Virus record (IMG/VR): IMGVR_UViG_2541047959_000009
DNA from: a virus
Taxonomy: Duplodnaviria > Heunggongvirae > Uroviricota > Caudoviricetes
Direction: 5' to 3' (one strand)
Length of the DNA: 64,000 bases
Below are positions 23,431-24,741 of this stretch, piece by piece (position 1 is the stretch's first letter; every line of letters starts with the position of its first letter). The notes beneath the pieces were generated by a model. The model searched no databases, was not told the DNA's origin, and saw nothing but the letters and a program-made list of their open reading frames with translations. Position numbers and translations under genes: made by a program.

Positions 23431-23724
23431 TCATCTTTGCCAGGTCAAATCAAAATCTACGTGAAAATCCGCAGGCTTAAGCTCGCAACTGCCACCACGC
23501 CCAATTAACGACGTTATGTTTACAACGTTTGAACCTGTTGAGATGGCAAGTTGAGTGTCATCTGTAAACGTGATGATTAGCATTTCAGTCTGATGAACCT
23601 GTACTCCAGTTTTCTGAAAACCAATCTGGACAGATTTCACCGTTTTCCCAACCATTTCACGGGCTTGATTGATAGAGTAATTAGCTTCAACTTGTAGGTC
23701 ATTCCTGAACTTGGGTAGTGTCAT
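23431..23724 (-). CDS. Hypothetical 97-aa protein
   Basis: ORF with AAGAGGATG RBS. Confidence 0.45.
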   Translation of the reverse strand: MTLPKFRNDLQVEANYSINQAREMVGKTVKSVQIGFQKTGVQVHQTEMLIITFTDDTQLAISTGSNVVNITSLIGRGGSCELKPADFHVDFDLTWQR

Positions 23725-23934
23725 TTTACATCCTCTTTAGTGAAGTTTTCGCTATTTAAATCAGCAGCATTCCTTTTAAATCACTGGCATGTCAGCAGTG
23801 GATAGTCTGAGTGTAACGTCCAGTGAGGGGAATAAATATTGGTCAGACTTTGCACAAAAGAGCCAACTATCGCGGGCTCTCTCTCATCATGTGCGAAAAT
23901 TGACCACAATATGAAATCCAGTTCCATTCCGAAA

Positions 23935-24741
23935 TCAAAAACCGGGAGAATATCTCACAGGAGACATAGCACCTTTCTTTCTGAGATCATCAGGAATTTT
24001 CTTACCTATATAAAGTTGTGTGATTTCAGGAGATGCCACCCTACCCCGGAAACCAAAGCGGGAACATTGAGTCGCTTCAAACTCATCGTCTGCCTCCCAT
24101 GAAGTCATCTCTGGGAAATTCTCACGGGTAGACTTGAGCCACTCATCAGCGATGTATACCCCCCTCACGATACCTCTTACTGTTGCCAGTATGATCTCAG
24201 CCTTACGAGCGCGGTCAACGCTGACACACCAGCTAAAACGTACAGCATCATAGAGGTCAATATCCTTTGAACTCCTATTAACCGATATCATTAGGGCCTT
24301 ATGTTGGAACGTAATAGTTTCAGGCTGGTACGTAGCGATTAATTCTTTTATGTGTGCAGCACCGAACTCATTACTGCCAGCACCGTTCATGATGTTAGTT
24401 AAGCCGGGATAAGCGTCTATGAGCGCTGCTTCAACCTCGTAAGCGGTCTTTTCTTCGGCCATACCGTGTCGATGAATAACATGGATCACATCAAGACCAG
24501 CAAGTCTGATCTCTCGAAGTTGCCTGAGTTTATTATTCAGTAACTCATCATCATCCACTGCTGCAACCTCACCACGCATATGAGCAAAGACACGATTACC
24601 TTTGCCTTTACCTACATAGAACGTACTGCCATCCCTCGGGTCAATTAGGCGGTATACATACCAGCCAAGATGTTCGATTACTCCAGATGGAAATTCATTA
24701 ATATCCATATCACAACGCCTATAATTTAACTTATAAGTCAC
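23935..24741 (-). CDS. GIY-YIG nuclease domain protein
   Basis: 268-aa ORF; N-terminal [29 protein letters not shown] matches the GIY-YIG motif; alternative start at 24708. Confidence 0.6.

What the first reader, a model, noticed from the sequence alone, without database searches (positions are those of the whole stretch)
23431..24741. GIY-YIG nuclease-like gene plus 97-aa neighbour on the opposite strand from the PD-(D/E)xK gene
The N-terminal GWYVYRLID...[13 protein letters not shown] is a clear GIY-YIG motif on a 268-aa protein with an unassigned C-terminal domain. A co-oriented 97-aa gene with strong RBS lies 210 bp downstream. Two different nuclease folds converging on one shared hairpin hints at a defence islet rather than housekeeping DNA.
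Basis: partly seen in the sequence, partly recalled or inferred. Interest (0 to 1): 0.5.

Follow-up and report, generated by a model that had tools for sequence, protein, structure and literature searches.

The report
Known hydroxymethylcytosine-cutting phage defence nuclease (CMoRE)
The GIY-YIG gene is the already characterised, crystallised anti-phage restriction enzyme CMoRE (PD-T4-3), which works alone; its 97-aa neighbour is not its partner and instead travels with the opposite-strand PD-(D/E)xK nuclease gene as a small uncharacterised cassette.

Summary
The GIY-YIG gene most likely starts at ATG 24708 (257 aa), not GTG 24741 (268 aa).

The gene is PD-T4-3, renamed CMoRE. It matches PADLOC PDLC04031 at E 1e-135 and is 256/257 identical to the crystallised E. 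coli APEC O1 protein (PDB 9U7U). CMoRE is a published single-gene type IV restriction enzyme. Its GIYxY-YIG nuclease domain cuts phage DNA carrying 5hmC or glucosyl-5hmC, which the C-terminal domain senses. It is not a homing endonuclease.

The proposed pairing with the 97-aa gene fails. CMoRE homologues occur in 966 of 5426 E. coli genomes. The 97-aa gene occurs in only 113, the same number as carry the ≥99% CMoRE allele. Five other CMoRE loci lack it.

The 97-aa gene is real (dN/dS 0.05–0.24). It lies next to homologues of the PD-(D/E)xK (Pfam PF18742) gene in Serratia, Kosakonia, Enterobacter, Morganella, Erwinia, Pantoea and IncX plasmids, in three arrangements and always without CMoRE. 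Its function is unknown.

The "defence islet" reading is supported. CMoRE, GmrSD and the nuclease cassette lie between ssrA and a prophage's pin/tail-fibre end, where K-12 e14 carries mcrA.

Main finding: already known. Side lead: modestly novel.

The parts
23935..24708 (-). CMoRE / PD-T4-3 gene (257 aa): N-terminal GIYxY-YIG nuclease domain, acidic autoinhibitory loop DDDE 52-55, C-terminal 5hmC/5ghmC-sensing domain.
   Evidence: PADLOC PDLC04031 E 9.9e-136, full length. PHROG 5356 E 8e-133. 256/257 identical to PDB 9U7U and about 85% identical to 9U75. RefSeq WP_000353910.1 has the same start. Function comes from PMC12923530.
24742..24770 (-). Promoter-like site upstream of CMoRE (TTGTCA-17-TATTTT)
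   Evidence: Consensus scan only. Its position argues against the GTG 24741 start.
23431..23724 (-). 97-aa gene (WP_000174562.1), an uncharacterised conserved small protein. It belongs to the PF18742-nuclease cassette, not to CMoRE.
   Evidence: Twenty homologue clusters, 57-99% identical, most 97 aa long (range 55-97). dN/dS 0.05-0.24. No Pfam, PADLOC, PHROG, NCBIfam or PDB match. Gene neighbourhoods.
23796..23825 (.). Imperfect inverted repeat (TGGAC-N14/15-GTCCA type) in the conserved region upstream of the 97-aa gene; candidate operator
   Evidence: Seen in alignment A5. Perfect in Kosakonia and the MAG, and recognisable in the Erwinia and Citrobacter plasmid versions. Function not tested.
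23378..23424 (.). GC-rich hairpin between the convergent PF18742 nuclease gene and the 97-aa gene; likely bidirectional terminator
   Evidence: Folds. Terminator-like sites on both strands. Long stem shared only with Serratia (partly Morganella); Enterobacter/Kosakonia/MAG have a different short GC hairpin; no hairpin examined in Pectobacterium, which diverges here.
22555..23343 (+). PD-(D/E)xK nuclease gene (262 aa): N-terminal helical domain plus C-terminal PF18742 (DpnII-MboI-type) restriction-endonuclease fold. Candidate catalytic residues D181, E192, K194.
   Evidence: Pfam PF18742 E 9.5e-49. PADLOC Aga_Helical-REase E 1e-26. PDB EcbAgaN E 1.9e-4. Invariant residues. AF2 model pLDDT 81 with weak restriction-fold matches.
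22445..22554 (+). Conserved promoter and 5'UTR of the nuclease gene (extended -10 TGgTAGAAT at 22497..22505, SD GGAAGG). The overlapping 'orf65' (22361..22558) is probably not a gene.
   Evidence: About 110 nt conserved in seven loci, including Pectobacterium. The reading frame is not conserved: the same residues appear as an in-frame N-terminal extension in P0054.
24858..24957 (+). Relic 3' half of a tRNA-Pro gene plus its terminator; an old attachment-site remnant between CMoRE and the dinI pseudogene
   Evidence: ARAGORN finds no intact tRNA. There is one exact match to the T-arm/acceptor pattern. The stretch is 86-88% identical to annotated tRNA-Pro loci in nearly all E. coli genomes. Terminator at 24926..24953.
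25760..27649 (+). GmrSD type IV restriction enzyme (DUF262 + DUF1524), the second hmC-directed defence gene of the islet
   Evidence: Pfam GmrSD_N and GmrSD_C. PADLOC mREase_IV score 1415. RefSeq WP_000834402.1 is the same protein in S88 and UTI89. The literature on a UTI89 GmrSD is in PMC4437046.
27751..27873 (-). Remnant of a pin-type invertase gene, marking the tail-fibre end of the adjoining prophage
   Evidence: S88 annotation, 'recombinase family protein, incomplete'. Compare pinE-mcrA in K-12 e14 and pinE-CMoRE in O157:H7.
21931..21975 (+). Last 45 nt of ssrA (tmRNA), displaced by the P2-like prophage to the left; marks the chromosomal edge of the islet
   Evidence: 100% match to the UTI89 ssrA 3' end, with homology to UTI89 starting exactly at 21931.

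Best explanation
The GIY-YIG gene (23935..24708, minus strand, 257 aa) is CMoRE, first reported as PD-T4-3. [quoted passage not shown]

As shown in the literature for a protein that differs by one residue, it forms a tetramer. Its C-terminal domain binds 5-hydroxymethylcytosine or glucosyl-hydroxymethylcytosine. An acidic loop (DDDE 52-55) blocks the active site until modified DNA binds. The GIYxY-YIG domain then cuts at CN11/N9G, destroying T-even phage DNA while sparing the host chromosome. It needs no partner gene.

The 97-aa gene downstream is a real gene but is not part of this system. It belongs to a cassette of about 1.6 kb (about 22270..23870). The cassette holds the convergent PF18742 PD-(D/E)xK nuclease gene, a shared terminator hairpin and the 97-aa gene with its own conserved upstream region. 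In the ST95-type E. coli lineage this cassette lies beside CMoRE.

Inferred, not shown: the 262-aa protein is a restriction-fold effector nuclease of the kind used by abortive-infection-type systems, and the 97-aa protein is an optional modulator or partner of it.

The nuclease cassette, CMoRE and GmrSD together form a defence islet. It lies at the cargo end of an e14/SfII-like prophage next to ssrA.
For: Identity of the GIY-YIG gene:
- PADLOC PD-T4-3 model matches at E 9.9e-136 over the full length.
- The protein is 256/257 identical to PDB 9U7U (APEC O1 CMoRE) and about 85% identical to 9U75.
- Y17, Y19, Y31, the DDDE 52-55 loop and Y127 are all present.
- Mechanism and single-gene sufficiency are published.

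No link between CMoRE and the 97-aa gene:
- CMoRE homologues are in 966 of 5426 E. coli genomes; the 97-aa gene is in 113, all at >=99% identity, the same number as carry the >=99% CMoRE allele.
- CMoRE loci in O157:H7, strain H2, Yersinia, Providencia and a spirochaete MAG have neither the 97-aa gene nor the nuclease.

Link between the 97-aa gene and the PF18742 nuclease:
- Convergent and adjacent in Serratia, Kosakonia, a MAG, Enterobacter and Morganella (the last a degraded copy).
- Divergent and adjacent in Erwinia and Pantoea soli.
- 0.7-2.4 kb apart on IncX1, IncX4, P. agglomerans and Citrobacter plasmids.
- A nuclease remnant lies beside the 97-aa gene in Salmonella.
- Six of 12 PLSDB plasmids that carry the 97-aa gene also have the nuclease within 5 kb, against 366 of 72,556 plasmids overall.
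- Shared non-coding DNA defines the cassette edges and stops about 65 nt short of the CMoRE stop codon.
- Both genes are under purifying selection.

Islet context.
Against: - The window's CMoRE allele carries a private R161C change, at a position that is R or K in six homologues. Its activity is therefore assumed, not shown.
- The APEC O1 allele gave only weak defence from its native promoter.
- The nuclease/97-aa link is statistical, not obligate. Most nuclease homologues lack the 97-aa gene: 267 versus 113 E. coli genomes, 366 versus 12 plasmids, and Pectobacterium.
- Several 97-aa homologues lack the nuclease: a Pantoea ICE, pEuc3, pSE11-2, and IncF and IncK plasmids.
- The loci are not phylogenetically independent, and both genes favour the same accessory regions of mobile elements.
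- No structure or domain assignment exists for the 97-aa protein (AF2 pLDDT 54).
Confidence: 0.88

Rival explanations
1. The GIY-YIG gene and the co-oriented 97-aa gene form a two-gene defence system. This is the first reader's implied reading: the small protein would be a regulator, immunity factor or sensor for the GIY-YIG nuclease.
For: The genes are co-oriented and 210 bp apart. No terminator-like site is predicted between them. They are always together in the 113 ST95-type genomes.
Against: About 830 other E. coli genomes, and Yersinia, Providencia and spirochaete loci, have CMoRE without the 97-aa gene. Every non-E. coli 97-aa locus examined lacks CMoRE. CMoRE cloned alone defends, and a survey of 274 systems found all to be single-component. 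The region upstream of the 97-aa gene is conserved in loci without CMoRE.
Confidence: 0.03
2. The GIY-YIG ORF is a homing endonuclease or a decayed ORF of a mobile intron.
For: GIY-YIG domains are common in homing endonucleases. The gene sits in mobile DNA next to a tRNA fragment.
Against: The full-length protein matches a defence family with solved structures and shown type IV restriction activity. No homing-endonuclease DNA-binding modules were found in Pfam. The gene is intact, is conserved at 85-94% across genera, and is free-standing rather than inside a host gene.
Confidence: 0.01
3. The 97-aa gene has no functional tie to either nuclease. It would be an independent small accessory gene of plasmids, ICEs and prophages, for example an anti-defence or maintenance factor. 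Its frequent closeness to PF18742 genes would reflect shared descent of a few blocks and a shared preference for the same accessory regions.
For: Homologues stand alone in a Pantoea ICE, pEuc3, pSE11-2, and IncF and IncK plasmids. On plasmids the spacing varies from 0.2 to 2.4 kb, with other genes in between, and the genes lie in regions rich in TA and Abi genes or in leading-region genes such as ssb, psiB and umuDC. The same domain occurs fused to an unrelated N-terminal region of about 300 aa in environmental bacteria with no nuclease nearby.
Against: Adjacency is kept in three different arrangements across saturated synonymous divergence. The tight 1.6-kb cassette sits at unrelated chromosomal sites in at least five genera. 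The enrichment on plasmids is about a hundred-fold.
Confidence: 0.3

Closest known systems
CMoRE / PD-T4-3 (E. coli APEC O1, PDB 9U7U/9U7Z; E. coli O157:H7, PDB 9U75/9U8D; first found in ECOR68)
   Same: Same protein family, and effectively the same allele as APEC O1 (256/257 identical). It shares the GIYxY-YIG motif, the acidic DDDE loop, the C-terminal sensing domain with Y127, and the single-gene architecture.
   Different: One private substitution, R161C, in the C-terminal domain. Activity of this exact allele has not been tested.
GmrSD type IV restriction enzymes (Eco94GmrSD, UTI89 'UT enzyme')
   Same: Same functional class as CMoRE: a modification-dependent nuclease aimed at hmC/glucosyl-hmC phage DNA. 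One is encoded 1 kb away in the same islet.
   Different: Unrelated folds (DUF262 + DUF1524/HNH versus GIY-YIG). GmrSD is NTP-stimulated. The UTI89 enzyme is reported not to restrict T4, whereas CMoRE does.
GIY-YIG homing endonucleases (I-TevI type) and UvrC
   Same: They share the catalytic GIY-YIG core. The paper reports UvrC as the nearest structural neighbour of the nuclease domain.
   Different: CMoRE has no sequence-specific DNA-binding modules, no intron or intein context, an extra tyrosine (GIYxY), an autoinhibitory loop and a modification-sensing domain.
PF18742 (DpnII-MboI-type) restriction-fold effectors: pAgo-associated AgaN / 'Aga_Helical-REase', and restriction-endonuclease effectors of Detocs
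   Same: This applies to the neighbouring 262-aa gene. It has the same helical N-terminal region plus C-terminal PF18742 nuclease layout as the PADLOC Aga_Helical-REase models (E 1e-26), and it weakly matches EcbAgaN in the PDB. The same Pfam domain is listed as an alternative Detocs effector.
   Different: There is no Argonaute and there are no Detocs genes nearby. The protein is much shorter than AgaN (262 versus 390 aa). The recurrent neighbour is an unannotated 97-aa gene.

Membership tests
CMoRE / PD-T4-3 | Full-length match to the family profile | tested here: met
   PADLOC PDLC04031 E 9.9e-136, residues 12-266 of the 268-aa ORF against model positions 1-254 of 256. PHROG 5356 E 8e-133.
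CMoRE / PD-T4-3 | GIYxY-YIG motif (Y17, Y19, Y31) with a conserved nuclease core | tested here: met
   GWY17VY19RL...FY31VGKGKGNR. The N-terminal domain is identical to PDB 9U7U and invariant in the six-homologue alignment. The motif is defined.
CMoRE / PD-T4-3 | Negatively charged autoinhibitory loop | tested here: met
   DDDE at residues 52-55, identical to 9U7U. The spirochaete homologue lacks this loop, in line with the paper's statement that most members have it.
CMoRE / PD-T4-3 | C-terminal modification-sensing domain (5hmC contacts the main chain of Y127) | tested here: met
   The C-terminal domain aligns end to end with 9U7U and 9U75, and Y127 is present. One caveat: R161C is private to this window.
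CMoRE / PD-T4-3 | Single-component system with no conserved partner gene | tested here: met
   Neighbours differ among the ST95, O157:H7, strain H2, Yersinia, Providencia and spirochaete loci. The 97-aa gene is confined to the 113 genomes of one clone.
CMoRE / PD-T4-3 | Restriction of T-even phages and cleavage of 5hmC/5ghmC DNA only | not testable with these tools
   Shown experimentally for the APEC O1 (one residue different), O157:H7 and Klebsiella proteins, and for a Capnocytophaga homologue. Not shown for the R161C allele.
GIY-YIG homing endonuclease | Sequence-specific DNA-binding modules C-terminal to the GIY-YIG domain, and an intron, intein or phage free-standing context beside a target gene | tested here: not met
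   The only Pfam match is the LEM-3-like GIY-YIG domain. The C-terminal domain is the CMoRE sensing domain. The gene is free-standing in a prophage cargo region.
pAgo-associated nuclease (AgaN) system - considered for the neighbouring 262-aa gene | Nuclease encoded next to a prokaryotic Argonaute | tested here: not met
   No Argonaute appears in the S88 or UTI89 annotation or in the ORFs around the gene. Similarity is limited to the helical and restriction-fold regions.
Type II toxin-antitoxin pair - considered for nuclease + 97-aa | Co-transcribed adjacent pair in which the toxin is never found without its antitoxin | tested here: not met
   The genes are convergent or divergent, never in an operon. 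Most nuclease homologues have no 97-aa gene.

The most novel reading that the evidence does not exclude
The cassette of about 1.6 kb that abuts CMoRE is an undescribed two-gene defence or abortive-infection module. It holds the PF18742 restriction-fold nuclease (22555..23343) and the convergent 97-aa gene (23431..23724). In this reading the 97-aa protein, which belongs to a domain family with no Pfam, PDB or PADLOC entry, senses infection or gates the nuclease. The same domain, fused to a region of about 300 aa in environmental bacteria, would do the same job in cis.
Probability: 0.25. Interest if true: 0.55.

Novelty: already known. Interest (0 to 1): 0.25.

Why it matters
The flagged gene needs no new explanation. 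It is a textbook-ready example of a type IV restriction enzyme, with crystal structures of an almost identical protein.

The useful results are corrective:
- The gene start and the C-terminal domain can now be annotated.
- The 97-aa gene should not be annotated as part of PD-T4-3.
- The family of the neighbouring nuclease is widely mislabelled 'malate dehydrogenase' in public records.

The locus also shows how one prophage cargo site next to pin swaps type IV enzymes: McrA in K-12, CMoRE in O157:H7, and GmrSD plus CMoRE in the ST95 lineage.

The PF18742-nuclease/97-aa cassette is a reasonable, cheap candidate for a phage-challenge test.

Tried and rejected
- Structure of the 97-aa protein: AF2 with an 18-sequence alignment gave pLDDT 54. 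I ran no fold search because the matches would be meaningless.
- Profile searches with the 97-aa family against Pfam, NCBIfam, PADLOC, PHROGs and PDB found nothing credible.
- A tblastn search of 50,697 phage genomes with the 97-aa protein found no match.
- Long-form proteins carrying the 97-aa domain at their C-terminus have no Pfam, PADLOC or NCBIfam match for the N-terminal 300 aa. In two lineages they have no PF18742 nuclease nearby. They therefore give no 'Rosetta stone' support for the nuclease link.
- Foldseek of the nuclease model against the PDB gave only weak restriction-fold matches: BstEII, CdiA-CT, Can2 and Mus81, with best E 8e-3.
- 'orf65' (22361..22558, overlapping the nuclease start by ATGA) was considered as a leader gene and rejected. 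Only its last 110 nt or so are conserved, its frame is not kept, and it contains an extended -10 element and the Shine-Dalgarno sequence.
- The related-loci scan of genome contigs with a single CMoRE protein returned only six loci. Cross-species diversity of CMoRE contexts is therefore thinly sampled here.
- A literature search for AgaN found nothing in the held library.
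Full report
**1. What is there**

The window matches the chromosome of E. coli S88 and close relatives (ST95-type strains such as UTI89, IHE3034 and APEC strains). Identity is 100.0% (rounded) over 19000..27954.

On the minus strand there is an ORF at 23935..24741 (268 aa from GTG) and a 97-aa ORF at 23431..23724. They are 210 bp apart. On the plus strand a 262-aa ORF (22555..23343) ends 87 bp from the stop codon of the 97-aa ORF.

A GC-rich hairpin with a 13-15 bp stem lies at 23378..23424 in that 87-bp gap. It folds at about -36 kcal/mol, with z of -3.1 to -3.5 against shuffles. Terminator-like sites occur there on both strands. The 97-aa gene has a strong ribosome-binding site (AAAGAGGATGTAAA-ATG). 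The physical observation is therefore correct.

**2. The GIY-YIG gene is CMoRE (PD-T4-3)**

- The ORF matches PADLOC model PDLC04031 (PD-T4-3) at E 9.9e-136. The match runs end to end and starts at residue 12 of the 268-aa ORF.
- Read from ATG 24708 (257 aa), it is 256/257 identical to PDB chain 9U7U_A, the E. coli APEC O1 protein. It is about 85% identical to 9U75_A, the O157:H7 protein.
- RefSeq uses the same start (WP_000353910.1).
- The published residue numbers Y17, Y19 and Y31 fit only this start.
- A promoter-like site at 24770..24742 would leave GTG 24741 outside the transcript.

The 2026 paper that solved these structures (PMC12923530) shows the following:
- It restricts T2, T4 and T6 by about five orders of magnitude.
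- It binds and cuts only DNA containing 5hmC or glucosyl-5hmC.
- It cleaves at CN11/N9G, leaving 2-nt 3' overhangs.
- It acts as a tetramer.
- It has a third tyrosine in the catalytic motif (GIYxY-YIG).
- An acidic loop autoinhibits the active site, and mutating that loop makes the enzyme toxic.
- The C-terminal domain binds 5hm-dCTP through the main chain at Y127.

All of these sequence features are present here.

Independent work supports the defence role. The gene defends in its native host, and a homologue only 48% identical cuts modified T4 and Mu DNA. The original screen listed a GIY-YIG nuclease among its newly validated defence systems.

The gene is therefore already known. It is not a homing endonuclease: it has no homing-type DNA-binding modules and no intron context.

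**3. One caveat on this copy**

The window differs from S88, and from all 113 E. coli genomes that carry this allele, by a single base at 24228. This changes Arg161 to Cys in the C-terminal domain. Position 161 is Arg in five homologues and Lys in a 55%-identical spirochaete protein. The paper does not mention this residue, so its effect is unknown.

The paper also notes that the APEC O1 allele defends only weakly from its native promoter.

**4. The 97-aa gene is not CMoRE's partner**

| Test | Result |
|---|---|
| CMoRE homologues in 5426 complete E. coli genomes | 966 genomes (942 near full length) |
| CMoRE allele at >=99% identity | 113 records |
| 97-aa gene in the same genomes | 113 genomes, all >=99% identical |

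The equal counts fit linkage by common descent of one block; whether the two sets of 113 are the same genomes was not cross-checked.

In O157:H7 the gene next to CMoRE's 3' end is pinE. In strain H2 it is a tail-fibre assembly gene, and on the other side lies a cytosine methyltransferase. Loci from Yersinia aldovae (94% identical CMoRE), Providencia heimbachae (91%) and a spirochaete MAG (53%) contain no 97-aa homologue.

The published survey of 274 systems found all of them to be single-component.

**5. The 97-aa gene is real and tracks the PD-(D/E)xK gene**

The protein has 20 homologue clusters in Enterobacterales, 57-99% identical and most 97 aa long (range 55-97). dN/dS against the window copy is 0.05-0.24.

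Homologues of the 262-aa PF18742 gene lie beside it in several arrangements:

| Arrangement | Where |
|---|---|
| Convergent, about 90-100 bp apart, as in the window | Serratia marcescens, Kosakonia cowanii, an unrelated MAG, a lambdoid prophage of Enterobacter sp. (beside a Kiwa system), two further metagenome contigs |
| Convergent, but the small gene is frameshifted | Morganella |
| Divergent, about 210-240 bp apart | An Erwinia plasmid, a Pantoea soli plasmid |
| 0.7-2.4 kb apart | IncX1, IncX4, P. agglomerans and Citrobacter farmeri plasmids |
| A 25-residue remnant of the nuclease just downstream | Salmonella |

None of these loci has CMoRE.

Of the 12 PLSDB plasmids with a 97-aa homologue, six are counted as having the nuclease within 5 kb: five checked directly (H136, H138, H139, H141, H142), and H140 assumed from its near-identity to H139. 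The background is 366 of 72,556 plasmids.

Non-coding DNA shared among the chromosomal copies runs from about 22270 to about 23870. It includes:
- a promoter-like, extended -10 region upstream of the nuclease gene;
- the region around the hairpin;
- about 150 nt upstream of the 97-aa gene, containing an inverted repeat (TGGAC-N14/15-GTCCA).

This shared DNA ends about 65 nt before the CMoRE stop codon. The unit that moves is therefore the nuclease plus the 97-aa gene, and CMoRE lies just outside it.

**6. Limits of that link**

The association is not obligate.
- The nuclease family is much larger: 2483 hits at E<=1e-5, in 267 E. coli genomes and 366 plasmids. It usually lacks the small gene, for example in Pectobacterium.
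- Several 97-aa homologues stand alone: a Pantoea ICE, pEuc3, pSE11-2, and IncF and IncK plasmids.
- The loci are related by descent, and both genes favour accessory regions rich in TA, Abi and leading-region genes.
- I therefore rate a functional partnership as more likely than not, but unproven. A classical toxin-antitoxin relation is unlikely.

**7. What the two cassette proteins look like**

*The 262-aa protein.*
- It has an N-terminal helical region and a C-terminal PF18742 restriction-endonuclease fold (E 9.5e-49).
- D181, E192 and K194 are invariant.
- It resembles the PADLOC 'Aga_Helical-REase' models and, weakly, the solved EcbAgaN.
- The same Pfam domain is listed as an alternative effector in Detocs.
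- From these family resemblances I infer that it is an effector-type DNase. This is inference only.

*The 97-aa protein.*
- It matches nothing in Pfam, NCBIfam, PADLOC, PHROGs, the PDB or 50,697 phage genomes.
- Its AF2 model is poor.
- A profile search shows that the same domain forms the C-terminus of proteins of about 375-405 aa in environmental bacteria (Terriglobia, Planctomycetota, Cloacimonadota). It carries a conserved H-x-S/T-E...FTDG...TGSN signature.
- Those long forms are unannotated. In two lineages they have no nuclease nearby.

**8. Context: a defence islet**

To the left, a P2-like prophage has integrated into the 3' end of ssrA. Window 21931..21975 is the last 45 nt of ssrA, and homology to UTI89 begins exactly there.

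From ssrA rightwards the order is:
1. nuclease/97-aa cassette;
2. CMoRE;
3. a relic 3' half of tRNA-Pro with its terminator;
4. a dinI pseudogene;
5. GmrSD;
6. a pin remnant;
7. the tail-fibre genes of a second prophage.

The equivalent position next to pinE holds mcrA in K-12 e14 and CMoRE in O157:H7. This cargo site therefore repeatedly carries type IV restriction enzymes.

The GmrSD protein here is identical in S88 and UTI89. If it is the published UTI89 'UT enzyme', which I did not verify by locus tag, the literature says it restricts T2 and T6 but not T4. CMoRE would complement that range.

**9. Verdict**

The flagged gene is a known, structurally solved defence enzyme. The 'defence islet' idea is right, and the proposed GIY-YIG/97-aa pairing is wrong. 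The only new lead is the uncharacterised PF18742-nuclease/97-aa cassette, which deserves a simple phage-challenge and interaction test.

Noticed in passing
window 24228 (codon 161 of CMoRE): A private SNP gives Arg161Cys. All 113 E. coli genomes with this allele, S88 and PDB 9U7U have Arg, and a 55%-identical spirochaete homologue has Lys. The effect on DNA sensing is unknown.
   Followed up: partly
window 22555..23343 and homologues (e.g. P0024, P0027, P0031, L023, L024): The PF18742 PD-(D/E)xK nuclease family is widely labelled 'malate dehydrogenase' in GenBank and RefSeq records. This looks like a propagated mis-annotation.
   Followed up: no
window 21931..21975; prophage to the left (int 19567..20586): A P2-like prophage is integrated into the 3' end of ssrA. 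The window holds only the displaced last 45 nt of ssrA, which is why ARAGORN finds no tmRNA. UTI89 lacks this prophage and has an intact ssrA 580 bp from the nuclease gene.
   Followed up: yes
window 20591..21814 (+): A 407-aa gene lies directly after the P2-like integrase, at the prophage end. It has no Pfam or PADLOC match but a full-length match to PHROG 7835 (unknown function). A similar gene follows the integrase in strain H2 (L009). It may be prophage cargo.
   Followed up: no
window about 561..2261 (+) (S88 annotation, L001 1562..3262): An 'AIPR family protein' gene (abortive-infection type) is inserted on the opposite strand among the P2-like baseplate and tail genes. It may be another defence cargo gene.
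   Followed up: no
window 24858..24957 (+): A relic 3' half of tRNA-Pro with its terminator, 86-88% identical to the chromosomal tRNA-Pro locus. It suggests that part of the islet once belonged to an element that integrated at tRNA-Pro.
   Followed up: partly
window 25760..27649 (+) compared with K-12 e14 (L034) and O157:H7 (L008): The position next to the pin invertase of e14/SfII-like prophages carries different type IV restriction enzymes in different strains: mcrA in K-12, CMoRE in O157:H7, and GmrSD plus CMoRE here.
   Followed up: partly
P0141, P0145, P0147 and others; loci L048-L052: The 97-aa protein is a stand-alone copy of a domain that forms the C-terminus of unannotated proteins of about 375-405 aa in environmental bacteria. 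The domain is duplicated in P0141. The conserved signature is H-x-S/T-E...FTDG...TGSN.
   Followed up: partly
window 23796..23825: An inverted repeat (TGGAC-N14/15-GTCCA) upstream of the 97-aa gene is conserved even in plasmid versions only 57-70% identical. It is a candidate operator for an unknown regulator.
   Followed up: no
window 27955..29555: The window diverges from S88 across the pin-remnant and tail-fibre segment. About 750 bp (28802..29554) do not align, and identity around it is lower. The cause may be an inverted or recombined tail-fibre cassette, or the window may come from a different strain.
   Followed up: no
L019 (Enterobacter sp. kpr-6), L024 (Pantoea soli plasmid), L055/L058 (IncX4 plasmids): Elsewhere the nuclease/97-aa pair sits beside other defence or TA genes: Kiwa KwaAB, an 'abortive infection family protein', an Abi family protein, ToxN and HigB. 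This fits a defence-island niche.
   Followed up: no
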